Position numbers and translations under genes: made by a program
The notes under the pieces: generated by a model
Seen by the model: the letters and a program-made list of their open reading frames with translations, nothing else
The model's database searches: none
What the model was told of the DNA's origin: nothing
Shown here: positions 1 to 10,991 of the stretch, piece after piece
Layout of the letters: the number at the start of each line of letters is the position of its first letter
Position numbering within the stretch: position 1 is the stretch's first letter
Virus genome (UHGV): UHGV-1654121
Direction: 5' to 3' (one strand)
From: a virus
Length of the DNA: 12,530 nucleotides

Positions 1-136
1 ATTAATAGACAACTATCTAAAAAACAACTCATTTAAGAACTTAAAACTAAGTTGTATTTGATATATAAGTATTCCGTATTGATACAATAGGTAGTAGTAT
101 TGCAAGGCATTTACGTGTTCAGTTGGATGATATGAA
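1..136 (+). promoter_or_regulatory. AT-rich leader upstream of the first ORF; candidate promoter region with no confidently assigned -35/-10 boxes
   Basis: Strongly AT-rich stretch (e.g. ttgatatataagtattccgtattgatacaatag) immediately upstream of the ORF starting at 137; TTGATA-like and TATAAG-like hexamers are present but spacing is ambiguous. Confidence 0.2.
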
Positions 137-349
137 ATGAAAAAAATAACTTCTAATTTGATCGCCCTTGAGGTCGGACATACGGTTTCAATTGACGATG
201 ATGGGGCAGCAGCCATACTCACTGAACTGCCAACAAAGTCTTTGTTACTTGACATGAAAGACGCAACCGCATACATCTTTGAGCTAAAGGGCAAGTGCTT
301 CACTCTCATCAATACCGGCTGCGGTTCAGTAGCCGTCCGCACTATTTAA
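137..349 (+). CDS. Small hypothetical protein (70 aa)
   Basis: Complete ORF with ATG start at 137; weak GGA-type purine stretch 6-12 nt upstream; mixed charged/hydrophobic composition; same orientation as downstream genes. No recognisable motif. Confidence 0.35.
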   Translation: MKKITSNLIALEVGHTVSIDDDGAAAILTELPTKSLLLDMKDATAYIFELKGKCFTLINTGCGSVAVRTI

Positions 350-375
350 CACCCCCCTCCCATCCTCTCTAGCGC

Positions 376-408
376 CTGTACGAACAGATTAGATGCCTGT
401 TCGTACAG
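376..408 (+). promoter_or_regulatory. Perfect 12-bp inverted repeat (ctgtacgaacag N9 ctgttcgtacag) preceded by a 21-nt polypyrimidine tract; stem-loop or operator candidate
   Basis: Read directly: 376-387 ctgtacgaacag is the exact reverse complement of 397-408 ctgttcgtacag, with a 9-nt loop; 350-370 is C/T only (cacccccctcccatcctctct). No T-run follows, so it is not a canonical intrinsic terminator. Confidence 0.4.
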
Positions 409-461
409 TGATAAATTACGCACATCAGAAAACAAATTGTTTTAACAACAAGGAAATTCTA

Positions 462-2690
462 ATGTCCAAAAAAACCACCAAAGCTGTACTGAAAGAGGTG
501 CAGGATTTTCGCGACTGTGTAAAACGAGTTGTAGCGATGCTTTCAGGTAAACAGATACCTGTTGCAGAACGAGGCAATGAAGCATATGTCCGCTATAACC
601 GGCGCGGCGAACCAGTGCTGGTAAACATCCCATCTATACCGGACGACGCGTCGCCAACCCTCATGAACGTAGTGCGTGGTTTTCTCGACCATGAGGTGGC
701 CCATATTCTCTTTACTGAACCGAAAGTCGCAATGCAGATGCGCGAAAGAGGAAAGGCTCCGTCTACGGGGCTTTGGAATGCGCTGGAAGACGTTTTTATT
801 GAACGCAGAATGGGGCAGGTCTTTAACGGAACCCGGCGTAATTTACTTGCAACACAGAGTCTGGTTATCGACAAATACTTCAGGAATAAAGTACCAGAAG
901 CGGTTTTAGCCTGTCACGGAGACCAGCGTGAATTGTTTTTGAAATTCTTCCTTTGCCCGGTCGTCCGCGCCTGGGATGGACAAAGCCCCTTCATCGATTT
1001 TATGGAAGAACACTGGCGCCTTATCGAGAGGCCGGTAGCCTTACTAAAGGAGCATGGTATAGACGTGGCCGTTCGCAATATGTCGAACACTGAGGATTGC
1101 GTGAAGGTCGCTGCTGCTATAGCCCAAATCATGCAGGATATGAAAGACAAGCCAGAGGGCAAATTACCAGAACTTAAATCATCTGCCAGAAAGCCGTCGG
1201 AGAGCAAAGACGAGTCCGAGGAAACGCCAGAATCAGGTGACGAGCCGTCTCATGGTGACTCTGCATCTAAGCCTGCCAAAGGCGAAGGCGATGACAAGGA
1301 AGAACGAGAAGATGATGCATCAGAAGAGGAAGATTCTGGGGATTCCGATTTGCCTGATTCGTTAGATAAGGACTTACCTACACACGTTAAAGATATTAGT
1401 GATACAGAAAGTAAATATACAGAAGCAGGCCACGAAGAGTCAGGAGACACCCCAGAATCCGATGCTATCGGCATGAAATCAAGTGACTCTGACACCGATG
1501 GTGATGACGGTGAGGACTCCGATACTGATCGTGGGGAAACTGAAGAAGACGTCGAAGGCAAAAAAAATAAAGATGGTGCGGAAGTGCCCAAAGACAGTGA
1601 GTCTGGCTTTGTTCCTGCGCCGGATGAAATGACTCTGGAGGAGGCGCTAAAGGCGCTCGACGAGATGGAAGACGGAATCGGTGAAATGACCGAAGACGCA
1701 CTGTCGGCCACCATCAGCAAAGAGCTTATGAGCGTCTCACCTTCTGATTATCGGCCATACGATCGATCATACGACTTTATCGGGTTGATTGATGGAGCCG
1801 AAGAGCATGTGAAGCGCACCAGAAAGACGTTCGGTGCAATACCAATGCACTCACCAGTCGACCGCTACCGTATGGTGCCAGAAGGCAGAAAACTCTTTGA
1901 ACTGAAAATCGAAAAACATCTGTCTGCAGGCGTTTCTTCGACGCTGGCCAAAGACCTGGAGCGGGCCATCGCCAGCCGCAACCGAGTTCAGTTTATACCT
2001 GGTCAGAGGCGTGGGCGGATACATGGCGCGAGCCTGTATCGTCTGGCAATGAACGACGACCGAGTGTTCCGCAAGAAGGAAGACCATAGAGCGGTGAACG
2101 CGTGTGTCCAGCAGGTCATCGACTTGTCCGGCTCAATGGATGGCGTGAAGATTCAACTGGCCCTAGCCAGTGCCTATACCATTGCGGATGCTTTAGATCG
2201 TATCAATGTCCCCAACATCATCACCGGCTTTACCACGTTCGGTAGCCCAGATTATGAAACCAGGTCGAAGCGCGGGTTTACACGCTTCGAGGCGCTCATG
2301 CTGCCCATTATCAAAAACTGGAATGAGAAAGCAAACTCTCCAGAGATCCGTGCTCGCATGGGATGCGTATGTGAGACGTTCCCCCTGCTCAATAACGTCG
2401 ATGGTGAGAGTGTCGCGCAACTGGCTACCCTGTTTGCAGGGCGAATGGAGGACAAAAAGATCATGCTGGTTATGAGTGATGGGGAGCCATGTGCTACAGG
2501 TAGTGGATTCCATCAGCATTTACGAACCGTCACCAAAGAAATTGAGACCTTGAGCGACATCGAACTGATGGCTATCGGCATTCTGACCGACGAACCACGG
2601 CGTTACTACAAAAATTACGCACTGGTTAACAGTGTTGAAGAGTTAGGGCCGTCAGTCGTCACTGAGTTATCTCGTATCATTCTTGGGTAA
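462..2690 (+). CDS. CobT-like vWA-domain protein (partner of a MoxR/CobS-type AAA+ ATPase), with HExxH motif and long acidic low-complexity segment
   Basis: Start set at ATG 462 (in frame with track ORF 393..2690) because AAGGAA at 450-455 lies 6 nt upstream and the 393 ATG is buried in the 376-408 hairpin. HEVAH encoded at 690-704; D/E/S-rich low-complexity segment about 1150-1700; MIDAS-like DLSGSMDG encoded around 2121-2135 followed by vWA-like sequence (ITGFTTFG...MSDGEP). Confidence 0.75.
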   Translation: MSKKTTKAVLKEVQDFRDCVKRVVAMLSGKQIPVAERGNEAYVRYNRRGEPVLVNIPSIPDDASPTLMNVVRGFLDHEVAHILFTEPKVAMQMRERGKAPSTGLWNALEDVFIERRMGQVFNGTRRNLLATQSLVIDKYFRNKVPEAVLACHGDQRELFLKFFLCPVVRAWDGQSPFIDFMEEHWRLIERPVALLKEHGIDVAVRNMSNTEDCVKVAAAIAQIMQDMKDKPEGKLPELKSSARKPSESKDESEETPESGDEPSHGDSASKPAKGEGDDKEEREDDASEEEDSGDSDLPDSLDKDLPTHVKDISDTESKYTEAGHEESGDTPESDAIGMKSSDSDTDGDDGEDSDTDRGETEEDVEGKKNKDGAEVPKDSESGFVPAPDEMTLEEALKALDEMEDGIGEMTEDALSATISKELMSVSPSDYRPYDRSYDFIGLIDGAEEHVKRTRKTFGAIPMHSPVDRYRMVPEGRKLFELKIEKHLSAGVSSTLAKDLERAIASRNRVQFIPGQRRGRIHGASLYRLAMNDDRVFRKKEDHRAVNACVQQVIDLSGSMDGVKIQLALASAYTIADALDRINVPNIITGFTTFGSPDYETRSKRGFTRFEALMLPIIKNWNEKANSPEIRARMGCVCETFPLLNNVDGESVAQLATLFAGRMEDKKIMLVMSDGEPCATGSGFHQHLRTVTKEIETLSDIELMAIGILTDEPRRYYKNYALVNSVEELGPSVVTELSRIILG

Positions 2691-2785
2691 TAGCTTTACC
2701 CTTAAAAATAAGTAACTACTTACTATACAGCCTAATATATTTCTATAAGATATACCCCACAAACGACAAACAGTAAGGAAAAAAC
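2691..2785 (+). promoter_or_regulatory. AT-rich intergenic region between the vWA and AAA+ genes; possible internal promoter plus RBS
   Basis: 95-nt AT-rich spacer (ttactatacagcctaatatatttctataagatata) ending in AAGGA at 2775-2779, 6 nt before ATG 2786. No exact T4 late-promoter TATAAATA box found. Confidence 0.2.
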
Positions 2786-4021
2786 ATGACCGCTACTGCA
2801 CTACAGCAAGAAGAACATTTGCCGGAAGCCATCGTCTGCAAGTGGTGTGGCAAATCCTTTCATTACCTGAAATCCCATATCTCTATGGGCCGTTGCGAGA
2901 ATATTCCTGAGTCTGCGAAGGGTCTGGACGTGGACGAAGTGGTGAAGATGTACACCTCTGCGTTTCCAGATGAACCAACGATCTCTCGCACGGCACTGGC
3001 CAAACTCAATGAGAAGCGTGCCGAAAAAAATTCATGCGAAGGAAAGGTAGCGGAGATTAGCGCACATCCGGGCTACGCAGGAACGGTCGAATACAAGACC
3101 GAACTGGTGGCCGCGCACGAGCTGCTTGGCGTAACGATCAAAGAGCTGGGAACGCCACGCGGAAAGCCACTACAGGTGACAGTCAACGTCAACACGCCCT
3201 ATCCGGAGTTCGTACCGGAAGCGAAGAAAAACTATGTGTATGGCGACTTCGACCTGATCAAAGACATCTTTATGATGCTGGAAATCGGAATCCCGGGTTA
3301 TCTCTGGGGCCATGCAGGAACCGGTAAATCTTCTCTTCCTACGCAGCTATGTGCCCTGCTAAATCGACCACTGATCCGCGCCCAGCATACGGCATCTATG
3401 GAGGAAGCGCACGTTACAGGCCAGATCCTCGCTCGCGATGGTTCCACCTATTTCGAACCGGGTTTACTAGCGCTGGCGATGAAAAATGGTTGGGTTTACC
3501 TCGCTGATGAATATGACTTCGCGTTCCCGCAGATTCTGGGTGTGTATCAGCCAGTTCTTGAAGGAGAGCCGCTGATCATCAAAGAGGCAACTGCGGACTG
3601 GCGCCGCATCACCCCGCATAAACGCTTTGCCTTCATTGGCACTGGCAACACTAACGGCTCTGGCGACGAAACAGGTCTCTATCAAGGCACAAACATCCAG
3701 AACGCAGCGAACTTCTCGCGTTTTGGCATTGTTTCAAACGTGAAGTACATGAGTACGAAGGCAGAAGTCAACATGCTGGCTGAAGCAGGCGTCATCCGCG
3801 AATACGCCGAGAAGATGGTGAAGTTCGCGAATCTTATCCGTGAAGGTTATGAAAAGCATCAGATTAGCCAGCCAATCGGGCCTCGTGAGCTGCTGCTGTC
3901 CGCCAAAATCGGAATGATGCGCGGTGATTTCTCTGCCGGCATCGAAAAGTCGTTTATCAATAAACTTCCATCCACGTCTGCACAGGCAGCGCGTGAAGTG
4001 GTTCAGAAGATCTTTGGTTAA
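2786..4021 (+). CDS. CobS-like / MoxR-family AAA+ ATPase
   Basis: Walker A GHAGTGKS encoded at 3308-3331; downstream ...WVYLADEYDFAFPQ... consistent with a Walker B region; strong RBS; immediately downstream of the vWA partner, the usual pairing for MoxR/CobS-vWA systems. N-terminus carries a Cys/His cluster (CKWCGKSFHYLKSHISMGRC). Confidence 0.8.
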   Translation: MTATALQQEEHLPEAIVCKWCGKSFHYLKSHISMGRCENIPESAKGLDVDEVVKMYTSAFPDEPTISRTALAKLNEKRAEKNSCEGKVAEISAHPGYAGTVEYKTELVAAHELLGVTIKELGTPRGKPLQVTVNVNTPYPEFVPEAKKNYVYGDFDLIKDIFMMLEIGIPGYLWGHAGTGKSSLPTQLCALLNRPLIRAQHTASMEEAHVTGQILARDGSTYFEPGLLALAMKNGWVYLADEYDFAFPQILGVYQPVLEGEPLIIKEATADWRRITPHKRFAFIGTGNTNGSGDETGLYQGTNIQNAANFSRFGIVSNVKYMSTKAEVNMLAEAGVIREYAEKMVKFANLIREGYEKHQISQPIGPRELLLSAKIGMMRGDFSAGIEKSFINKLPSTSAQAAREVVQKIFG

Positions 4022-4023
4022 TC

Positions 4024-4227
4024 GTGCGTAAAGGATGTTTCGGCTCTCTTATCGCAGCGTCTGAAACTGGCAGTGCTTGTTTGGCATGTCCGGATAGCCC
4101 CGAGTGCCACCAGTCAGCCAAAGAGGTTGCGATTTCGATGTATGGGAAGTTCGTTGGCTTCCCCAATGACAAAATCAAGAAAACCAGAAAGGTAAAAGCA
4201 CATGAAGGCTCTGATGGTCAGAACTGA
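4024..4227 (+). CDS. Possible small Cys-rich protein (67 aa, GTG start); doubtful
   Basis: ORF begins with GTG 2 nt after the upstream stop and overlaps the polymerase start by 26 nt; contains CLACPDSPEC (CxxC...C). No convincing RBS for the GTG; internal ATG at 4138 has AAGAGG 11 nt upstream. Could equally be non-coding leader. Confidence 0.2.
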   Translation: MRKGCFGSLIAASETGSACLACPDSPECHQSAKEVAISMYGKFVGFPNDKIKKTRKVKAHEGSDGQN

Positions 4228-7200
4228 CTTCTCCCTGGGAGAGTCAGCTCTAAAAGCAGAAAACGCGATGAAAATCGCGAGAGACGCTGGCTACACCGCT
4301 GTCATTTCCGCTGACAGCATGAACATTGCCAGTGTGATCCCCCTGCAGCGTGCCGCTGGCGACGACATGGCGGTTATTTGTGGTGTTAAGCTGAATGTGG
4401 TCGACGATCCGACATACGAGCACCGCGCTCGCTTGGCGAAAGAGTCAGGAAGATGTATGGAATCATTAGTTCGTGATCGCAGCTACTGCTTCACGGCACT
4501 GATAAAGAATGAACAAGGTTATCGCGACGTGTGCGAACTGATGACCTTAGCGAACAAGCGCGAGCAATTCTACTTTGTCCCGCGTCTGGCGCTTGAGCAG
4601 CTGGCAGCCGCATATGCCAAAGGCAACATCATCCTGCTGACGTCCGACATTGGCAGTGTATTCCAGCGCCGGGACTTCGCAAAAATTATCGGGACGCTGG
4701 TCACAGCTGGCGGTCGCGATAACTTCTACAGCGTGGTTTATCCGCACCCTACCCCATTCTACGACCAGATTAACGTCCGGGCGATGAAAGTGGCGAGCGC
4801 ACTGAAAATAGAGCCAGTGGCGTTCTATCCCGCTTATTACGAAGCGATCGACGACGCTGACATTAAAGACATTGCGCACATGGTTACGAACAACATCAAA
4901 ATCGACCAGCCGCATCGTCTGCGCATCCCCCACCAGCGAGATAACGCTGTTAATGGTCGTCGCCATCTCCTTGAAGCGCTGAAAGCCTTCTCCGTTCGCA
5001 TGGGCGTACCGGTAACAGCTGCAATGGCCTCAACAACGCAGGACACCATTATTGAAGCCTGCACATGGCGCTGGCATGAACTGCCACCAGCACTGCCCAA
5101 GATGGCAGACGACGAGCCTGCAACGCTGATGAAGCTGGCTGTCGCGGGGCTACGCAAGCGTCTAACTACTAAAGAGTTTGGCTACACACCACCGGCTTCT
5201 GAGCACCGAGTGTATGTTGAGCGACTGAAGTACGAAATGGACACACTGACCCGTCTGGGCTTCTGTGGCTACTTCCTGATGGTACGCGATCTGATGAATC
5301 ACAGCCGTGAAACTGGCATTCCTGTCGGGCCAGGTCGTGGTTCCTCTGCCGGTTCTCTGGTGGCGTGGTGCATAGGCATAACCAACGTCGATCCTATCCG
5401 TCACGGTCTTCTGTTTGAGCGTTTCATCAACCCTGAACGTCTTGACTTACCGGATGCGGATCTGGACTTCAGCCAGGCACGTCGTCATGAGGTGATCGAG
5501 TATCTGAATGAACGCTATGGCGAAGATTACGTTGCCGGTATTCCAAACTTCACCTATCTGGGCGCCGCTTCTGCGCTGCGAGACACTGCGCGTATTTACG
5601 GTGTCGACGCTGCGGATATGGCGGTATCCAAAGAGTTCAAGAATCTGGAAGACGATAGCCTGTCTCTGGAAGAGCTGCGCGAGCAACTGGCCAGCCTGGA
5701 CAAATACGCCACGAAAAACCCGGAAGCGTTCAAAGCGGCGTGTAAGCTACAAAGCCTGATGCGTGGTTTTGGCCGTCATGCAGCGGGGATGATCGTCGCT
5801 GGCGTTCCACTGGTAGAGCGCACGCCCGTCGAGCTGCGTGGCAACGCTCGCTGTATTGCATTCGATAAACGTTACTGCGAGGCAATGGGGCTGATTAAGC
5901 TGGACGTTCTCGGTCTGGCAACGCTCGATCTGCTGGATAGCGCGAAACGCTACATCAAAGAGAGTACCGGGGAAGACATCAATCTCGATGCTATCCCACT
6001 GGACGATCGCAAAGTTCTGGATGGGTTCGCTGCAGGGTACACTCAGGGCGTATTCCAGCTGGAGTCCGGCCCCATGCGCAAGCTGCTTAAAGATCTGGGC
6101 GGTGGCATTGAGCCAATGAGCTTCAAAACCGTTGTCGCCACGACCGCACTCTTCCGACCTGGCCCGATTCAATCAGGCATGTTGGACGACTATGTCTCCG
6201 TGGCCAAAGGCTTCATGGCTCCACAGTCGCTGCACCCGGTACTGGACGAGCTTACCGCGGAAACCAACGGCGTGATTCTGTATCAGGAACAGACGATGAA
6301 CGCGACACGATTGCTGGCCGGCTTCACGATGGCCGAAGCAGATGGTGTGCGTAAAGCGATCGGTAAAAAGGATATGGAAAAGATGAAGAGCATGGGCGAG
6401 AAGTTCGTCGTTCAGGCTCAAGCTGGTTGGATCGACGTTGAGATGGAAGACGGCACAACGCAGCGTATTCACCGCGCGGAACACTTCAAATGTGAGGACG
6501 GCGCACTGCGGACGGTCGAAGAAGCGCTGGAGGCAGGTGTAAAATTGCCTATGGCTGCTGTACGCGTTACAGGGTCACAACCGGGCTTGTCTGAGACGAA
6601 AGCTAAGGAGATCTGGGATGCCTTCGAGAAGAACGGTGCGTATCAGTTCAACAAATCACACTCCGTTGCTTACTCGCTGATCAGCTATCAGTCTATGTGG
6701 TTAAAGACACATTACCCTGCTGAGTTCTTCGCTGCTGCGCTCACCATTCTGGGCGAGGATAAGCACCAGGGCTTAGTTAAAGATGCGCTGACCTATGGCA
6801 TTCGCGTATTGCCACCAGACGTTAACGTTTCATCTAACCGAATTGAGATCCGCACGCTGGAAGACGGCAGTCAGGTTCTGTATGCACCATTCTCTGCTGT
6901 GAAAGGCTGCTCTGAGAATGGTTGCCAGGCCATCATGAGAGCGCGTGAGAAAGTTGGCGGCAAATTCGAATCACTGGCGCAATTTGAGGAATCTGTCGAG
7001 AAGCGAGCATGTAACAGCCGGGTACGCGAGTCGCTGCAAAAAGTCGGTGCGTTCGCATCGATTGAGCCTGGCTGTCTGCCAGCGACAGATCCGGAACGGC
7101 TGCGCGACCAGGCAGAGTTGATGGGTAATCTGGTGATCGACGCTGTAAAAGCCTCTCGACCGTTCGAGATGAACCCTAAGCGCTCTGCTGAAGTAAATGT

Positions 7201-7720
7201 ACTGATGACGCGCATGGCGGCCGAAATGGGGCTGGGAGACAATCTAATCCGTCCAAGCATTGGTATTAAGCCAAAAATCATGGTTATTCTGGACAACGCG
7301 AACGGCAATGATGGGCGTACCGGCTACTTCATGGAGAACGGCTACGACGACTTTAAGGCGAAGTTGCTTACTGCCGGCGATCTGCGTATGGGCGATCTCT
7401 ACGTCACCGGCGTGTGCAAAAAGGTGAAGGACAAAGAGAAGGACTACACCAAAGACGAGATCGGTCAGTTCACCGACTTTATGCGTGAAGAGATCAATCT
7501 GGTGCGTCCGACCTATGTACTGACGTGTGGCAGCCGGGCGACGTCGCTCTTCAACAACAAGAGCAAACCATCCGACCTGGTTGGACGCAAAGAGTATCTG
7601 CCGGAGCTGGATGCGACCGTTTTCTACGGATTTAACCCGAATATCCTTTACTTCCGACCGGAAGAAGGAGAGCGACTGGAGGCCATTCTGACTGATATTG
7701 CGGAGACGATAAATAAGTAA
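4202..7720 (+). CDS. DnaE-type DNA polymerase (Pol III alpha-like catalytic subunit) with degenerate N-terminal PHP domain and atypical C-terminal domain
   Basis: Family-C polymerase signature blocks present: GPGRGSSAGSLVAWCIGIT..DP....LLFERFINPER, catalytic PDADLDF (Asp codons at 5453, 5459, 5465), AFDKRY, LYQEQTM, FNKSHSVAYSLISYQ..WLKTHYPAEF, then an HhH-like region. N-terminus (MVRTDFSLGES...AVISADS) lacks the His-x-His and TDH metal ligands of active PHP domains. The last roughly 150 aa (about 7259-7717) do not resemble the OB-fold/tau-binding tail. Confidence 0.9.
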   Translation: MKALMVRTDFSLGESALKAENAMKIARDAGYTAVISADSMNIASVIPLQRAAGDDMAVICGVKLNVVDDPTYEHRARLAKESGRCMESLVRDRSYCFTALIKNEQGYRDVCELMTLANKREQFYFVPRLALEQLAAAYAKGNIILLTSDIGSVFQRRDFAKIIGTLVTAGGRDNFYSVVYPHPTPFYDQINVRAMKVASALKIEPVAFYPAYYEAIDDADIKDIAHMVTNNIKIDQPHRLRIPHQRDNAVNGRRHLLEALKAFSVRMGVPVTAAMASTTQDTIIEACTWRWHELPPALPKMADDEPATLMKLAVAGLRKRLTTKEFGYTPPASEHRVYVERLKYEMDTLTRLGFCGYFLMVRDLMNHSRETGIPVGPGRGSSAGSLVAWCIGITNVDPIRHGLLFERFINPERLDLPDADLDFSQARRHEVIEYLNERYGEDYVAGIPNFTYLGAASALRDTARIYGVDAADMAVSKEFKNLEDDSLSLEELREQLASLDKYATKNPEAFKAACKLQSLMRGFGRHAAGMIVAGVPLVERTPVELRGNARCIAFDKRYCEAMGLIKLDVLGLATLDLLDSAKRYIKESTGEDINLDAIPLDDRKVLDGFAAGYTQGVFQLESGPMRKLLKDLGGGIEPMSFKTVVATTALFRPGPIQSGMLDDYVSVAKGFMAPQSLHPVLDELTAETNGVILYQEQTMNATRLLAGFTMAEADGVRKAIGKKDMEKMKSMGEKFVVQAQAGWIDVEMEDGTTQRIHRAEHFKCEDGALRTVEEALEAGVKLPMAAVRVTGSQPGLSETKAKEIWDAFEKNGAYQFNKSHSVAYSLISYQSMWLKTHYPAEFFAAALTILGEDKHQGLVKDALTYGIRVLPPDVNVSSNRIEIRTLEDGSQVLYAPFSAVKGCSENGCQAIMRAREKVGGKFESLAQFEESVEKRACNSRVRESLQKVGAFASIEPGCLPATDPERLRDQAELMGNLVIDAVKASRPFEMNPKRSAEVNVLMTRMAAEMGLGDNLIRPSIGIKPKIMVILDNANGNDGRTGYFMENGYDDFKAKLLTAGDLRMGDLYVTGVCKKVKDKEKDYTKDEIGQFTDFMREEINLVRPTYVLTCGSRATSLFNNKSKPSDLVGRKEYLPELDATVFYGFNPNILYFRPEEGERLEAILTDIAETINK

Positions 7721-7725
7721 TAAAG

Positions 7726-7750
7726 AAAAACCCGCCAAATGGCGGGTTTT
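7726..7750. terminator. Bidirectional rho-independent terminator between convergent genes
   Basis: aaaaa-CCCGCC-aaat-GGCGGG-tttt: 6-bp GC stem (7731-7736 / 7741-7746), 4-nt loop, A-tract upstream and T-tract downstream, placed 6 nt after the polymerase stop and overlapping the last codons of the convergent - strand gene. Confidence 0.7.
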
Positions 7751-8309
7751 ATGCGCAAATTTTTTCGCAGTCTTGCGAGTGACTGAGTGAGCGAGTAACT
7801 CTCTCCACCTCATGAATGTCGCCCAACGATCTTATACGCAGGGCAAGATTCCACGTACTCAATGTGCGCGCGTTACGCACCAGTTCTTCCCGTGCTTTTT
7901 CGTCTTTGCTGTCAAGACGACCGCAGTCGTTCAACCATTTAGCGACTTCCGCCCAGTCCCAGAGTGGAGACTGACCGCTGATACGCTGAACAGGGCAAGG
8001 AAAATCACCTTTGCCACGTAATCCGTCTTTAAGCAGAGTAATAGCCTGGCGCGTTAAGCCAGAGAGTTGAGCAATATCGCTCAAGCCTACCAGTGCTGAA
8101 TCTACCGATTCCACCACTGCGCCAATGCCTGCTGTTTCAATATCAAGGATTGCCGATTCGATTGCTTCATCTAAAGATTTAGCTTCTCGGTCAAATTCTA
8201 CATACACTGAGTTTCCGTAGTAGCAAATGAGCGCATCATCGCAACCGTGGCTATACAGAGCATCTGCGACTACACAGTACTGACTACAGGTTATCAGAAT
8301 TATCCCCAT
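7749..8309 (-). CDS. DNA-binding protein with C-terminal excisionase/AlpA-type HTH; N-terminal domain weakly HicB-like
   Basis: Only - strand gene in the window. C-terminal half LSDIAQLSGLTRQAITLLKDGLRGKGDFPCPVQRISGQSPLWDWAEVAKWL fits the HTH followed by a conserved W..EV..WL pattern seen in AlpA/excisionase-like HTH domains. N-terminal half (YSHGCDDAL...DREAKSLDEAIESAILDIE) loosely resembles the HicB-type antitoxin fold. No obvious SD upstream of the ATG at 8309. Confidence 0.55.
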   Translation of the reverse strand: MGIILITCSQYCVVADALYSHGCDDALICYYGNSVYVEFDREAKSLDEAIESAILDIETAGIGAVVESVDSALVGLSDIAQLSGLTRQAITLLKDGLRGKGDFPCPVQRISGQSPLWDWAEVAKWLNDCGRLDSKDEKAREELVRNARTLSTWNLALRIRSLGDIHEVERVTRSLSHSQDCEKICA

Positions 8310-8969: not shown

Positions 8970-9986
8970 ATGTCTAAGTCATTACTTGATCTGCTTAACA
9001 AGACCCGTGGCGATATTGCTTCCAAACGTGGCAATAACATTGATTTGACCCGTCTGAAAGATGGCAATAACTATCTGCGCATTTTTCCGAACAAGGACGA
9101 TCCGAATGGCGTGTTCTTCCAGACTTTCGGTATGCACTACGTTAAGCATCAGAATGAGGAAGGCAAAGATGTAACCACCGCCTATATCTGCGAACAACAC
9201 ACCCACGGCCACGCTTGCCAGCTGTGTGAGATGGTTATGGAAGGTCGCGCTCGCTTTAAGGGCAACAAAGCGATGGAAGAGCGCATTAATAGTATGCGTG
9301 CTACGCCGCGTTATCTGGTCAACGGTGTTCTGTCTGCGCGTGAAGACTTTGCGGACGCAGAGAAATGCCAGCTGATTGAGCTGCCGTCTACGGTCTTCGA
9401 CGATATCTGCAAAGTGATGTCCGAAGATATTGCGGACGATATTGGCAACCCACTGAGCAAAGAAGAAGGCTATGCGTTCCTGATTAAACGCACCGGTTCC
9501 GGTCGTGACACCAAGTACGACGTATCCCCGAAACGTAAAGTCTACAAAGGCGACATTCCTGAGAAGCTCTGGACTACCCAACACGATCTGATCGCATATG
9601 CGAACCAGGCTGACGAAACTCGTTTGCTGTCCACGGCTCGCACTATGGGTCGTCTGATTGGTATTGCGGCTCCGGCAGCAACTATGTCCTCACCAGCCAT
9701 TTCTTCCGCTGCAAAATCAGCCGCAGCTGGACTGCCAGGCTTTGGCTCTATCACTGGTCATACGGAAGGCGCAGCTGCTGTCGCTACAGCACATACTCCG
9801 GCGCCAGAGTCCACCAGCCTGGTTGATGAAGAGATCCTGCGTGCCGCTGAAGCTGAGTTCAAACCGGAAGAAGCGAAAGCTCCGGAAGCCACCGAAGCCG
9901 CAAGTGCTTCAGCATCTGCTGCCGCTGCATCTGTACCAGCTGATGAAGGTCTCGATAACCTGCTGGCTGAACTGGACGCTCTGTAA
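8970..9986 (+). CDS. T4 gp32-like single-stranded DNA-binding protein
   Basis: AAGGAG at 8958-8963 with a 6-nt spacer. N-terminal block LRIFPNKDDPNGVFF and His/Cys cluster H60...C74-x8-C83-x2-C86 (encoded about 9147-9227) parallel the gp32 Zn-binding subdomain (H-x12-C-x9-C-x2-C in T4). Ala/Ser-rich linker and acidic C-terminal tail (...DEGLDNLLAELDAL) are typical of SSB partner-interaction tails. Confidence 0.8.
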   Translation: MSKSLLDLLNKTRGDIASKRGNNIDLTRLKDGNNYLRIFPNKDDPNGVFFQTFGMHYVKHQNEEGKDVTTAYICEQHTHGHACQLCEMVMEGRARFKGNKAMEERINSMRATPRYLVNGVLSAREDFADAEKCQLIELPSTVFDDICKVMSEDIADDIGNPLSKEEGYAFLIKRTGSGRDTKYDVSPKRKVYKGDIPEKLWTTQHDLIAYANQADETRLLSTARTMGRLIGIAAPAATMSSPAISSAAKSAAAGLPGFGSITGHTEGAAAVATAHTPAPESTSLVDEEILRAAEAEFKPEEAKAPEATEAASASASAAAASVPADEGLDNLLAELDAL

Positions 9987-10002
9987 TCCCATAACGTGAC
10001 CA

Positions 10003-10031
10003 GTAAGGCGTCTGCGGACGCCTTACTTTTT
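10003..10031 (+). terminator. Rho-independent terminator downstream of the SSB gene
   Basis: gtaaggcgtc-tgcg-gacgccttac followed by ttttt: 10-bp stem (10003-10012 / 10017-10026), 4-nt loop, T-run 10027-10031; located 17 nt after the SSB stop codon. Confidence 0.75.
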
Positions 10032-10046
10032 GGAAGGAGTGTACCG

Positions 10047-10991
10047 GTGAATTATCTCTTTGTGGACGGTAACAGCCTGGGCTATTACCACCAGCAATCC
10101 GACAAATTACACAACGGCGAGATGGAAGTTCAGGCGGCTTTTGGCTTCGTGAAGAACGTTCGTCGTTACGCCTCAATTCTCCATGCCCGGCCAATGATCT
10201 TGTGGGATGGATTCAGCGACAAACGTCGCGACTTCTACCCGGAGTACAAAGCGAACCGCGACGACGACCCGGACATGAAGAAGATGAAAGAAGGCTTTGC
10301 CATCCAGAAGCCGTACATCTTGAAAATGATGACCGCGCTGGGCGTTAACCAACTCATTGCAAAGGACGCAGAAGCGGATGACCTGGCTGGAATGCTGGTC
10401 TCTCGTCTGGCTCCGCAGCCGACTGTTGACCATATCTATCTGCTAACGGGCGATGGCGACTGGCTCCAGCTTGTTCGTGAGAACGTGAGCTGGATAAGCC
10501 TGCGTGAAGACGCCAAGCACAAGCAGGTGAACTTCGAACAGTTCGCAGAGCTGACCGGTCTGCCGACCCCACGCGCGTTTCTGGAAGCGAAAGCGTTGCA
10601 GGGCGATAACTCGGACAACATCAAAGGCGTAGGTGGCATTGGTGATGGTGGCGCGAAAGAGCTGCTTCATGAATGGGGAAGCGTGGCCGCAATGGTACGC
10701 GGCATTAACGACGGTTCCATTGTCATCAACAAAGGTCGCTATAAGACGGCATTCAACAAGCTGGCAAAGAACGCCTTCAACGAGAAGACGGGCTGCCGGA
10801 TGCTCGAAGCCTTTAAGCGCAACATGATGCTGATGAACCTTATCGACACAAAATTCCCACCCAGCGAAATCGAGTCGATTAAAGGCGCACGCGATATGAG
10901 CGCCTTTGAACAGATGTGTTACGAGCTGAATTTCCGTTCGTTTCTGGAAGATCTGGAAGTGTTTGTTCTGCCGTTTGAGAGGTATTGCTGA
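10047..10991 (+). CDS. 5'-3' exonuclease / flap endonuclease (FEN, T4 RNase H / Pol I 5'-exo family)
   Basis: Conserved FEN blocks: (M)NYLFVDGNSLGYY, ILWDGFSDKRRDFYPEYKANRDD, EADDLAGML, LLTGDGDWLQLV, H3TH-like GDNSDNIKGVGGIG. Start placed at GTG 10047 (GGAAGGAG at 10032-10039, 7-nt spacer) rather than track start 9996, because the intervening sequence is the 10003-10031 terminator. Confidence 0.85.
   Translation: MNYLFVDGNSLGYYHQQSDKLHNGEMEVQAAFGFVKNVRRYASILHARPMILWDGFSDKRRDFYPEYKANRDDDPDMKKMKEGFAIQKPYILKMMTALGVNQLIAKDAEADDLAGMLVSRLAPQPTVDHIYLLTGDGDWLQLVRENVSWISLREDAKHKQVNFEQFAELTGLPTPRAFLEAKALQGDNSDNIKGVGGIGDGGAKELLHEWGSVAAMVRGINDGSIVINKGRYKTAFNKLAKNAFNEKTGCRMLEAFKRNMMLMNLIDTKFPPSEIESIKGARDMSAFEQMCYELNFRSFLEDLEVFVLPFERYC

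What the first reader, a model, noticed from the sequence alone, without database searches (positions are those of the whole stretch)
350..408. Polypyrimidine tract followed by a perfect 12-bp inverted repeat upstream of the vWA gene
A 21-nt C/T-only tract followed by a perfect 12/12 inverted repeat with a 9-nt loop is unlikely by chance in about 100 bp of intergenic DNA. It overlaps the track-predicted ATG 393 and would occlude it in RNA. Candidates: Rho-dependent termination/rut site for the upstream small gene, an RNase III processing site, or a dimeric protein operator.
Basis: seen in the sequence. Interest (0 to 1): 0.45.

Follow-up and report, generated by a model that had tools for sequence, protein, structure and literature searches.

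The report
Transcript-ending hairpin before phage replication genes
A conserved stem-loop behind a C-rich stretch, in a plasmid-like phage of gut bacteria, most likely ends the message of a small early gene just before the phage's DNA-replication genes, which appear to have their own promoter; this is useful for annotation but an ordinary kind of element.

Summary
The inverted repeat is real: CTGTACGAACAG (376-387) and CTGTTCGTACAG (397-408) with a 9-nt loop. It is the longest perfect one in the window.

Two details of the finding are wrong. The tract at 350-370 is 19/21 pyrimidines, not pure C/T. ATG 393 is not a start; the CobT-like vWA gene starts at 462.

The window is an SSU5/pHCM2/pMT1-type phage-plasmid. 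The repeat lies between a 70-aa ORF in the 'cro position' and the cobT-cobS-dnaE operon. Four sequence types in relatives keep the pairing, through compensatory changes and G·U pairs that work only on the + strand. The upstream spacer varies in sequence but is always C-rich and G-poor. No U-tract follows, and it scores far below the window's two canonical terminators.

In published strand-specific RNA-seq of the relative Cyrano, expression falls 10-30-fold across this intergenic region.

Best reading (about 0.5): a U-less 3'-end hairpin of a factor-dependent, probably Rho-dependent, terminator. It overlaps a predicted extended -10 promoter and sits upstream of a palindromic operator. A DNA operator remains a serious rival because the arms are nearly invariant.

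It is a new member of a known kind, of low to moderate interest. The palindrome, repeated 17 times across a near-identical plasmid, is the better lead.

The parts
137..349 (+). 70-aa ORF of unknown function (PHROG 2627). It is divergent from the XRE-type prophage repressor that lies just left of the window. The hairpin follows its stop codon by 26 nt.
   Evidence: ORF list. Annotated as a CDS in all relatives. PHROG hit at 9e-32, no Pfam hit. The Cyrano homologue CYRAN_46 is induced up to log2 10.8.
340..375 (+). C-rich, G-poor tract. 340-371 is G-free; 350-370 is 19/21 pyrimidines. It is a candidate Rho-loading (rut-like) segment, together with the C-rich 3' end of the ORF from about 298.
   Evidence: longest G-free run in the window; C/G = 3.0 over 298-375, 99.8th percentile; the sequence is not conserved, but the composition (C 40%, T 29%, A 21%, G 10%) and the C/G ratio of 1.7-3.0 are kept in all relatives examined.
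376..387 (+). Arm 1 of the inverted repeat (ascending strand of the RNA stem), CTGTACGAACAG.
   Evidence: Pairing is kept in 97.3% of cells across 22 distinct relatives.
388..396 (+). 9-nt loop ATTAGATGC. It contains the spurious ATG 393 and coincides with the weak -35-like position (TTAGAT, 389-394) of the predicted cobT promoter.
   Evidence: All 9 loop columns vary in relatives, but most sequences begin with TT at 389-390.
397..408 (+). Arm 2 (descending strand of the stem), CTGTTCGTACAG. It also forms most of the spacer of the predicted promoter.
   Evidence: It is invariant in all 15 distinct type-A sequences. A similar TTCGTACA occupies the spacer of a paralogous promoter at record position 107574.
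409..417 (+). Predicted extended -10 element TGATAAATT (TG-n-TAAATT). The transcription start is inferred near 424.
   Evidence: The hexamer keeps TAnnnT in every relative, and TG is kept in most. A comparable -10-like element lies 12-14 nt before the palindrome in paralogous intergenic regions. This is a prediction only; the generic promoter scan did not call it.
429..446 (+). Palindrome GAAAACAAATTGTTTTAA (core 431-443). It is one copy of a genome-wide repeated operator-like motif and lies at about +6 to +23 of the predicted promoter.
   Evidence: 17 copies with at most 1 mismatch in the 113-kb near-identical plasmid, against 0.52 expected. It is conserved in all four sequence types.
450..464 (+). 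Shine-Dalgarno AAGGA (450-454) and the true ATG (462-464) of the CobT-like vWA gene (462-2690).
   Evidence: RefSeq annotation of the 99.8% identical record. Pfam CobT and CobT_C/vWA hits. The N-terminus is conserved from this ATG.

Best explanation
The inverted repeat encodes an RNA stem-loop at the 3' end of the transcript of the 70-aa early gene (137-349). Together with the C-rich, G-poor, unstructured RNA just before it, it acts as a factor-dependent terminator and 3'-end-protecting structure. The factor is most likely Rho. The element is not a classical intrinsic terminator.

Its job is to keep transcription of the small gene from running into the cobT-cobS-dnaE replication operon. That small gene sits in the 'cro position' and is switched on under stress. 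The operon appears to have its own extended -10 promoter: -10 at 409-417, arm 2 as spacer, the loop at the -35 position. That promoter is followed by a palindromic operator (429-446) shared by many early promoters of the element.

Shown: the repeat, its conservation, the compensatory and + strand wobble changes, the conserved C>G skew, the missing U-tract, and the expression step-down in a relative.

Inferred: Rho dependence, the exact 3' end, the promoter and its start site, and the operator function of the palindrome.
For: 1. Context. The window is an SSU5/pHCM2/pMT1-type phage-plasmid. The gene order is int, XRE repressor (-), 70-aa ORF (+), then cobT, cobS, dnaE, a gp32-like gene and an exonuclease.

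2. Pairing across relatives. It is kept in four sequence types: A CTGTACGAACAG/CTGTTCGTACAG; B CTGCGCGAATGG/CTGTTCGCGCAG; C CTGCGCGAATTG/CTGTTCGCGCAG; D GCGCGU-U-AAUGG/UCAUUGCGCGC with a bulge. 97.3% of cells are paired, against 23-49% when the partner is slid. Two pairs changed on both sides (U-A to C-G, A-U to G-C).

3. Strand. Four of five internal one-sided changes give G·U on the + strand; these would be A·C on the - strand. By my estimate p is about 0.016 if a quarter of substitutions would do so by chance.

4. Type D has a bulge and unequal arms. That suits a folded strand better than a symmetric duplex site.

5. The 78 nt before the stem have C/G 1.7-3.0 in 15 relatives, the 98-99.9th percentile of each locus, although the spacer sequence is not conserved.

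6. No U-tract. The d-score is -43 here and -22 to -62 in orthologues. The two canonical terminators of the same window score +6.4 and +10.2.

7. Published strand-specific RNA-seq of phage-plasmid Cyrano, type B (PMC9928086 S1 Table). CYRAN_46 versus CYRAN_47 is log2 10.8 versus 5.9 in macrophages at 6 h, 8.65 versus 5.25 at 1 h, and 7.0 versus 3.3 in condition B1. That is a 10-30-fold drop across the 98-nt intergenic region.

8. Dar & Sorek 2018 (PMC6061677 abstract): in E. coli, Rho-dependent transcripts end just after stable stem-loops that lack U-rich tails.

9. A distant Acinetobacter relative also has a small gene, a long U-less hairpin, a C-rich tract and a palindrome near the Shine-Dalgarno before its cobT-like gene, with no sequence similarity.
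Against: 1. Within type A the arms are almost invariant: 3 non-consensus cells of 360, against 15-37% in the loop and flanks. That is more than a purely structural stem usually needs and hints at sequence-specific recognition.

2. The C-rich tract free of ribosomes is only 12-41 nt, short for a rut site. Dar & Sorek place rut sites downstream of the protective hairpin, not upstream.

3. The RNA-seq evidence is at gene level, from a relative with 68% DNA identity. It does not show where or how transcripts end; differential RNA stability would look the same.

4. The covariation rests on very few independent events, probably one for the two double-sided changes.

5. G-poor composition is also seen in the cobT-cobS spacer, so it may be a general property of spacers on this strand.

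6. The d-score formula was recalled from memory and applied with modern folding energies.
Confidence: 0.5

Rival explanations
1. A double-stranded DNA operator. A sequence-specific protein, phage-encoded or from the host, binds the two 12-bp arms. These span about -48 to -16 of the predicted cobT promoter. The protein would repress, or less likely activate, the replication operon independently of the general palindromic operator.
For: The arms are nearly invariant across type-A elements from seven genera, while the loop and flanks vary. Arm 2 is never changed. The repeat is centred near -32 of a predicted extended -10 promoter whose TAnnnT is conserved. The arm centres are 21 bp apart, two helical turns. 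In type A each arm is itself a 10/12 palindrome, CTGTWCGWACAG. When the arm sequence changes between types, both arms change together.
Against: There is no second copy in the 113-kb genome and no candidate binding protein. The recognition helix of the XRE repressor is the same in types A-D although the arms differ, so it is not the binder. The 70-aa protein is only 57-64% identical among elements with identical arms. The self-palindromy of each arm is lost in types B-D. One-sided changes are biased to + strand G·U, and type D has a bulge; a duplex site does not predict either. Twelve-bp half-sites 21 bp apart are atypical for a helix-turn-helix dimer. This model does not explain the RNA-seq step-down.
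Confidence: 0.22
2. A sequence-specific RNA signal on the small-gene transcript: a nut/put-like antitermination site, a binding hairpin for a phage RNA-binding protein, or an RNase III processing site. It would gate or process read-through into the replication operon.
For: The layout resembles lambda cro-nutR-tR1-cII: a small gene, a pyrimidine-rich stretch, a hairpin, then replication genes. That comparison is from my own knowledge. Both sequence and structure of the stem are conserved. There is a + strand wobble bias. CYRAN_46 is induced without induction of the downstream operon, as expected for a conditional barrier.
Against: There is no Rfam match. The boxA-like CCUCUCUA at 364-371 is not conserved in relatives. 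There is only one copy in the genome, whereas N-type systems have a site in each early operon. No N- or Q-like gene was identified. A 12-bp perfect helix is short for E. coli RNase III. The downstream operon appears to have its own promoter.
Confidence: 0.12
3. A lox/dif-like core site for the neighbouring tyrosine recombinase ('integrase', about 0.9 kb to the left), used for plasmid dimer resolution or for integration.
For: The geometry is 12-bp inverted arms around an asymmetric, variable spacer, 33 bp in all, close to loxP's 34 bp (that figure is from my own knowledge). A tyrosine recombinase gene is nearby. The arms are conserved and the spacer is variable. The site lies at the border between the divergent immunity module and the conserved replication module.
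Against: The spacer is 9 bp, where 6-8 is typical. All 274 plasmid matches and all 33 E. coli genome matches are contiguous across the repeat. None is chromosomal, and large cointegrate-sized plasmids show no junction there. Phage SSU5 has lost int but keeps a perfect repeat. The bulged type D arms and the G·U-biased changes do not fit. The recombinase has domains of the lambda-Int type and no detectable sequence match to any solved structure, Cre included.
Confidence: 0.06

Closest known systems
[quoted passage not shown]
   Same: An energetically stable stem-loop directly after a gene, with no U-rich tail. C-rich, G-poor RNA lies next to it, and transcript level drops downstream.
   Different: Here the C-rich segment is upstream of the stem, while that study places rut sites downstream. 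Rho dependence is untested. The stem sequence is unusually conserved. The stem overlaps a predicted promoter.
Lambda tR1/nutR region between cro and cII (own knowledge)
   Same: A small early gene divergent from the repressor is followed by a C-rich stretch and a hairpin, then by a factor-dependent barrier in front of the replication genes.
   Different: There is no conserved boxA, no boxB-like 5-bp stem with a pentaloop, no N-like protein, and a single copy only. The downstream operon seems to carry its own promoter and operator.
Intrinsic (Rho-independent) terminators, for example the two in this window at 7727-7750 and 10002-10031
   Same: A stem-loop shortly after a stop codon, on the coding strand.
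   Different: No U-tract, a 9-nt loop, 50% GC, and a d-score of -43 against +6 and +10 for the canonical ones.
Phage operators overlapping promoters (lambdoid OR/OL; the dispersed C1 operators of P1)
   Same: Dyad symmetry over the -35/spacer region of an early promoter. The sequence is invariant within an 'immunity type' and changes in both arms between types.
   Different: No cognate protein and no further copies. The half-sites are long and far apart. The changes favour RNA pairing. In this element the P1-like dispersed operator role fits the other palindrome (429-446) better.

Membership tests
Intrinsic (Rho-independent) terminator | Stable stem-loop downstream of a stop codon on the transcribed strand | tested here: met
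   -17.1 kcal/mol for 376-408. It begins 26 nt after the stop codon at 347-349.
Intrinsic (Rho-independent) terminator | U-rich tract immediately 3' of the stem | tested here: not met
   The tail is UGAUAAAUUACGCAC. T-score is 1.3, against 2.9-3.1 for the window's canonical terminators. The d-score is -43, and -22 to -62 in orthologues. The terminator scan found none in 1-800.
Rho-dependent terminator with a protective 3' stem-loop | Stable stem-loop not followed by U-rich sequence at the end of a transcription unit | tested here: met
   class definition from the PMC6061677 abstract.
Rho-dependent terminator with a protective 3' stem-loop | C-rich, G-poor, unstructured rut-like RNA adjacent to the site | tested here: met
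   C/G = 3.0 over 298-375, with a 32-nt G-free run. C/G is 1.7-3.0 in 15 relatives. The tract is unpaired in the predicted fold. Caveats: it lies upstream of the stem, and only 12-41 nt of it are untranslated.
Rho-dependent terminator with a protective 3' stem-loop | Drop of sense transcript across the site in vivo | tested here: inconclusive
   There is a 10-30-fold lower level of CYRAN_47 than of CYRAN_46 in strand-specific RNA-seq of a type-B relative. This is gene-level only and not from this element.
Rho-dependent terminator with a protective 3' stem-loop | Read-through increases when Rho is inhibited (bicyclomycin, rho/nusG mutants) | not testable with these tools
   No such data set was available.
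Dimeric repressor operator | Dyad-symmetric duplex site overlapping a promoter | tested here: inconclusive
   The symmetry is perfect here, but imperfect or bulged in types B-D. The promoter is only predicted.
Dimeric repressor operator | A cognate DNA-binding protein whose specificity tracks the site | tested here: not met
   The XRE recognition helix is unchanged across arm types A-D. The 70-aa protein varies while the arms stay constant. No other candidate was identified.
Tyrosine-recombinase core site (lox/dif/FRT-like) | Two 11-14-bp inverted arms around a 6-8-bp asymmetric spacer | tested here: not met
   The arms are 12 bp, but the spacer is 9 bp and the next inner bases (A388, C396) are not complementary.
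Tyrosine-recombinase core site (lox/dif/FRT-like) | Recombination junctions at the site (integrated or cointegrate forms) | tested here: not met
   There are no chromosomal places among 5426 E. coli genomes, and all 33 plasmid places are contiguous. 266 of 274 plasmid records cover at least 80% of 1-3000.
Lambda-type nut site | Conserved boxA (CGCUCUUA-like) followed by a short boxB hairpin, present in each early operon | tested here: not met
   The boxA-like CCUCUCUA (364-371) is absent from relatives. The stem is 12 bp with a 9-nt loop. There is a single copy in the genome and no Rfam hit.

The most novel reading that the evidence does not exclude
The hairpin is not a passive terminator. It would be a sequence-specific, conditional barrier: the commitment checkpoint of SSU5/pHCM2/pMT1-type phage-plasmids. 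Stress switches on the small 'cro-position' gene. Entry into the replication operon would then depend on a factor that recognises this invariant stem, or on release of a repressor roadblock at the palindrome 22 nt downstream. That would explain why the arms are conserved at the nucleotide level.
Probability: 0.15. Interest if true: 0.55.

Novelty: new member of a known kind. Interest (0 to 1): 0.3.

Why it matters
SSU5-type phage-plasmids include pHCM2 of Salmonella Typhi, pMT1 of Yersinia pestis and many resistance-carrying plasmids of E. coli, Klebsiella and Enterobacter. I found no description of their lysis-lysogeny circuitry in the papers I could search.

Placing a transcript end, a promoter and an operator in the 112 nt between the 'cro-position' gene and the replication operon gives a concrete map of the early regulatory region, and that map can be tested. 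It also corrects the start codon of the CobT-like gene.

On its own, a U-less terminator hairpin is an ordinary element.

Tried and rejected
- Rfam at permissive threshold on 1-1000 gave only two chance snoRNA hits.
- LexA box: the arms contain CTGT...ACAG, but the spacing is N4, not N8, and no CTG-N10-CAG exists across the region (sequence).
- Each arm as a LacI-type palindrome CTGTWCGWACAG: there are no further copies in the window or the plasmid, and the self-symmetry is lost in types B-D.
- boxA/nut: not conserved.
- A minus-strand PRE-like promoter in the loop: the TAAnCT hexamer is not kept in types B and C.
- attP or hybrid sites: none found.
- 70-aa protein: no Pfam hit, and the PHROG family has unknown function. 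The AlphaFold model has pLDDT 47 and is unusable, so no fold search was run.
- Integrase against PDB sequences: no hit.
- The search for related loci with the 70-aa alignment failed because no conserved stretch was available. The CobT N-terminus was used instead.
- Y. pestis pMT1 sRNAs sR082 and sR083 (PMC3770706) lie at other loci.
- A 2026 preprint on an SSU5-like phage-plasmid and heteroresistance appeared in the search but could not be opened.
- Literal searches for the motifs in papers returned only unrelated primer sequences.
- The generic sigma-70 scan did not call the proposed promoter. That prediction rests on conservation only.

Full report
WHAT THE WINDOW IS

The first 3 kb match more than 270 plasmids of Escherichia, Enterobacter, Yersinia, Salmonella and Citrobacter. 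Most are about 100-115 kb and typed 'non-mobilizable'. The best match is 99.8% identical to E. coli S56 plasmid B, NZ_CP010244.1. The window also matches Salmonella phage SSU5 at 91% and the E. coli phage-plasmid Cyrano at 68%.

This is therefore an SSU5/pHCM2/pMT1-type phage-plasmid. The gene order around the finding is as follows:
- a tyrosine recombinase (+) and an XRE-type regulator of 129 aa (-), both just left of the window;
- a 70-aa ORF at 137-349 (+);
- a CobT-like protein with a C-terminal vWA domain at 462-2690;
- a CobS-like AAA ATPase at 2786-4021;
- DnaE at 4202-7720;
- a gp32-like single-strand-binding protein;
- a 5'-3' exonuclease.

The XRE gene is the 'putative repressor' CYRAN_45 of Cyrano. 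It is expressed in lysogens (PMC9928086). The window differs from NZ_CP010244.1 by one base in the C tract and by a 12-bp indel in dnaE. My whole-genome scans were therefore run on a 99.8% identical relative, not on the window's own replicon.

CHECK OF THE OBSERVATION

The inverted repeat is exactly as described. The arms are 376-387 CTGTACGAACAG and 397-408 CTGTTCGTACAG, 12/12 complementary, with a 9-nt loop. It is the longest perfect close-range inverted repeat in the window. Chance does not explain it: about 0.013 are expected per window by my arithmetic, and the fold z-score is -5.7.

Two details are wrong.
- The tract at 350-370 is not C/T-only. It contains A351 and A362, so it is 19/21 pyrimidines. 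It remains the most pyrimidine-rich 21-mer of this strand and lies in the longest G-free run of the window (340-371). C/G is 3.0 over the 78 nt before the stem.
- ATG 393 is not the start of the vWA gene. RefSeq places the start at the position equal to 462, behind AAGGA. The protein alignment is conserved from that methionine. Most relatives have no ATG in the loop, and they carry frame-breaking indels between the stem and 462.

The idea that the hairpin occludes the start codon therefore falls.

CONSERVATION

I collected the region upstream of cobT from these sources:
- 12 annotated plasmids and phages;
- 4 genomes;
- about 87 IMG/VR contigs.

That gives about 50 distinct sequences. All have a hairpin at the same place, in four sequence types.

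| Type | Hosts | Arms |
|---|---|---|
| A | Escherichia, Salmonella, Yersinia, Citrobacter, K. oxytoca, Cronobacter, Buttiauxella, Kluyvera | CTGTACGAACAG / CTGTTCGTACAG |
| B | Cyrano-like E. coli | CTGCGCGAATGG / CTGTTCGCGCAG |
| C | Klebsiella | CTGCGCGAATTG / CTGTTCGCGCAG |
| D | Cronobacter sp. JZ38 and metagenomic relatives | GCGCGU-U-AAUGG / UCAUUGCGCGC, with a bulged U and a 6-nt loop |

On an alignment of 22 distinct sequences, 97.3% of stem cells are standard pairs, against 23-49% when the 3' partner is slid. Two pairs changed on both sides (U-A to C-G and A-U to G-C, seven sequences). No shuffle reached the observed covariation score. These double changes probably go back to one event, so the covariation is real but thin.

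The one-sided changes are more telling:
- A5G in a Kluyvera contig gives G·U on the + strand.
- A9G in the Cronobacter clade gives G·U on the + strand.
- C10U in types B, C and D, and A11G in types B and D, also give G·U on the + strand.
- Only the U·U of type C breaks an internal pair.
- Two independent G12A changes affect the loop-closing pair.

If about a quarter of random substitutions would give a + strand wobble, four of five has a probability of about 0.016. That is my estimate, and it assumes the events are independent. On the - strand the same changes would be A·C mismatches.

This, and the bulged asymmetric type D, favour a folded + strand RNA over a symmetric duplex site.

Within type A, however, the arms are far more conserved than a plain stem would need:

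| Region | Non-consensus cells |
|---|---|
| Arms (all three changes in arm 1) | 3 of 360 |
| Loop | 34 of 135 |
| 20 nt after the stem | 45 of 300 |
| 4 nt before the stem | 22 of 60 |

This is the main reason I keep a protein-recognition rival alive.

THE PYRIMIDINE TRACT

Its sequence is not conserved, and its length varies from 12 to 41 nt. Its composition is conserved: C 40%, T 29%, A 21%, G 10% over 34 distinct spacers. The 78 nt ending at the stem have C/G of 1.7-3.0 in all 15 representative relatives, at the 98-99.9th percentile of each locus. The tract is predicted to be unpaired.

Among near-identical E. coli elements the C run itself differs: CACCCCCC, CACACCCC, CCCCCCCC(C), CACCACCCC. 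What is conserved is therefore a C>G skew next to the stem, not a polypyrimidine motif.

One caveat applies. The cobT-cobS spacer is also G-poor.

WHAT KIND OF TERMINATOR

The window holds two textbook intrinsic terminators:
- CCCGCC-aaat-GGCGGG followed by TTTT, after dnaE (7727-7750);
- AGTAAGGCGTC-tgcg-GACGCCTTACT followed by TTTTT, after the gp32-like gene (10002-10031).

I applied the d'Aubenton-Carafa d-score, with the formula recalled from memory and current folding energies. The two canonical terminators score +6.4 and +10.2. The repeat at 376-408 scores -43, and its orthologues score -22 to -62, because no U-tract follows. It is therefore not a classical intrinsic terminator.

[quoted passage not shown] Those stem-loops protect the RNA against 3' exonucleases (Dar & Sorek 2018, PMC6061677 abstract). 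The present element fits that class, with the difference that its C-rich RNA lies upstream of the stem.

EXPERIMENTAL HINT FROM A RELATIVE

The S1 Table of PMC9928086 re-analyses strand-specific RNA-seq (GSE154648; + and - strand profiles are shown in that paper's Fig 7) of E. coli LF82 carrying Cyrano. Values are log2(fpkm+5), averaged over the two replicates; the LB, B1, 1 h and 6 h values are quoted.

| Gene | LB | B1 | B6 | Macrophage 1 h | Macrophage 6 h |
|---|---|---|---|---|---|
| CYRAN_46 (70-aa homologue) | 4.3 | 7.0 | 6.0 | 8.65 | 10.8 |
| CYRAN_47 (cobT homologue, 98 nt downstream) | 2.9 | 3.3 | 4.0 | 5.25 | 5.9 |

The small gene is thus strongly induced while the operon behind the hairpin stays 10-30-fold lower.

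This is what a terminator between the two genes predicts. It does not show the mechanism, and it comes from the type B relative.

WHAT LIES BEHIND THE HAIRPIN

Directly after arm 2 comes TGATAAATT (409-417). The hexamer keeps the pattern TAnnnT in every relative: TAAATT, TAAAAT, TAATTT, TACATT, TATTTT, TATTAT. TG two bases upstream is kept in most. I read this as an extended -10 promoter with a start near 424. Arm 2 would then be the spacer, the loop (TTAGAT and variants beginning with TT) a weak -35, and arm 1 would lie at about -48 to -37.

Twelve to fourteen nt further on lies the palindrome GAAAACAAATTGTTTTAA (429-446), which is conserved in all four types. In the 113-kb relative, the core AAACAANTTGTTT occurs 17 times with at most one mismatch, against 0.52 expected. 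Nearly all copies are intergenic and 10-40 nt before start codons, for example before genes for a DnaB-like helicase, a DNA-binding protein next to the terminase, and many small early genes. Most copies have a -10-like hexamer and the string AAC(A/G)CCA.CAAGA in front.

The recognition helix of the XRE repressor (N-x-N-N-L-S-L-I-K-S-G-K) is the same in types A-C and nearly so in D. That matches the universally conserved palindrome and not the type-specific inverted repeat.

My inference is that the palindrome is the dispersed operator of the prophage repressor, in the manner of the C1 operators of P1 (own knowledge). The cobT operon would then be one of many units it controls. All of this is prediction. 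The generic promoter scan did not call the site.

One paralogous copy (record position 108338) has a canonical terminator directly in front of the same promoter-palindrome cassette. So the layout terminator-then-promoter occurs elsewhere in the element.

DISTANT RELATIVES
- An Acinetobacter plasmid (CobT about 30% identical) has a small gene, a long U-less hairpin, a C-rich tract, a -10-like element and a different palindrome next to the Shine-Dalgarno of its cobT-like gene.
- A K. oxytoca plasmid (48% identical) has a pyrimidine-rich spacer and a hairpin next to the Shine-Dalgarno.
- An Aeromonas plasmid has a hairpin that sequesters the Shine-Dalgarno.

The general theme recurs without sequence similarity, although the details differ.

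RIVALS

A duplex operator is the strongest rival, at 0.22. The evidence for and against it is listed in the rival section. In short, it explains the invariance of the arms and their position over the promoter. It does not explain the wobble bias, the bulged type D, the lack of a cognate protein, or the RNA-seq step.

A sequence-specific RNA signal (nut-like site, RNA-binding protein site or RNase III site) gets 0.12. It would explain conservation of both sequence and structure. There is no boxA, no second copy, no Rfam hit and no candidate factor.

A lox-like site for the neighbouring recombinase gets 0.06. The geometry is suggestive, but the spacer is 9 bp and no junctions occur at the site in 274 plasmids or 5426 E. 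coli genomes. Phage SSU5 has lost int, the repressor and most of the 70-aa gene, yet keeps a perfect repeat.

VERDICT

The repeat is real, conserved and functional. Most likely it is the 3'-end hairpin of a factor-dependent terminator. That terminator separates a stress-induced small early gene from the replication operon, and it overlaps that operon's own promoter.

This is a new member of a known kind. Interest is low to moderate (0.3).

The most novel reading still open is that the invariant stem is a conditional checkpoint for entry into lytic replication (probability about 0.15).

The dispersed palindrome seen in passing is probably the more valuable lead for understanding how these widespread phage-plasmids control lysogeny.

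Noticed in passing
window 429-446 (core 431-443); record NZ_CP010244.1 positions 1376, 1692, 5414, 6612, 48963, 66599, 69528, 97705, 97730, 107574, 108338, 109236, 109727, 110105, 111306, 112873, 112924: A palindrome, GAAAACAAnTTGTTT(T/A)A, occurs 17 times in the 113-kb phage-plasmid, against 0.5 expected. Nearly all copies are intergenic and 10-40 nt before start codons, and most follow a -10-like hexamer at a fixed distance. It is conserved upstream of cobT in all relatives. It looks like the dispersed operator of the XRE prophage repressor, or a shared early-promoter element. I found no description of it in the searchable literature.
   Followed up: partly
window 7727-7750 and 10002-10031: Two canonical intrinsic terminators with T-tracts. 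One follows dnaE and may be bidirectional, since it faces a minus-strand gene at 7749-8309. The other lies between the gp32-like gene (stop at 9986) and the 5'-3' exonuclease. The exonuclease's real start is the GTG at 10047 behind GGAAGGAG, not the GTG at 9996 of the mechanical ORF list.
   Followed up: partly
L012 (Salmonella phage SSU5, JQ965645.1 41033-47018) versus window 1-350: SSU5 lacks the integrase, the XRE repressor and all but the last few codons of the 70-aa ORF. A tRNA-Asn gene sits there instead, and homology to the window resumes at about 333. SSU5 thus looks like a deletion derivative that has lost the immunity module, which fits its isolation as a lytic phage.
   Followed up: partly
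L007 (K. oxytoca plasmid NZ_CP064109.1), region equivalent to window 374-408: A 21-bp tandem duplication of arm 1 plus the loop gives three arms (arm1-loop-arm1-loop-arm2). It probably arose by slippage between the GCCTGT direct repeats that begin each arm.
   Followed up: no
window 350-358 and the same place in L002, L023, L024, L026-L029: Among elements that are about 99% identical, the C run after the stop codon differs: CACCCCCC, CACACCCC, CACCACCCC, CCCCCCCC, CCCCCCCCC. It is a local hotspot of A/C substitutions and length change.
   Followed up: no
window 14-65 (divergent region between the XRE repressor gene and the 70-aa ORF): There is an imperfect inverted repeat at 14-34/45-65. There are also two degenerate copies of the palindrome half-sites: AAAAACAACTCATTT at about 19-33 and AAAACTAAGTTGTATTT at about 43-59. 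These are possible autoregulatory operators of the switch region.
   Followed up: no
Cyrano genes CYRAN_44 to CYRAN_47 (L017); PMC9928086 S1 Table: Inside macrophages the integrase and the 70-aa homologue rise about 25- to 90-fold (log2 5.6 to 10.3 and 4.3 to 10.8). The repressor also rises, and the replication and structural genes stay low. This is a partial induction state that stops at the hairpin and promoter region. CYRAN_43, upstream of int, is by far the most highly expressed gene in the Cyrano rows I read (log2 13-15).
   Followed up: no
window 130-620 versus relatives; L001-L013: The module boundary lies at the hairpin. Left of it the 70-aa protein is only 57-64% identical among type-A elements and the spacer cannot be aligned. 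Right of it the promoter region and the CobT N-terminus are 82-93% identical. The element is therefore mosaic, with a junction next to the repeat.
   Followed up: partly
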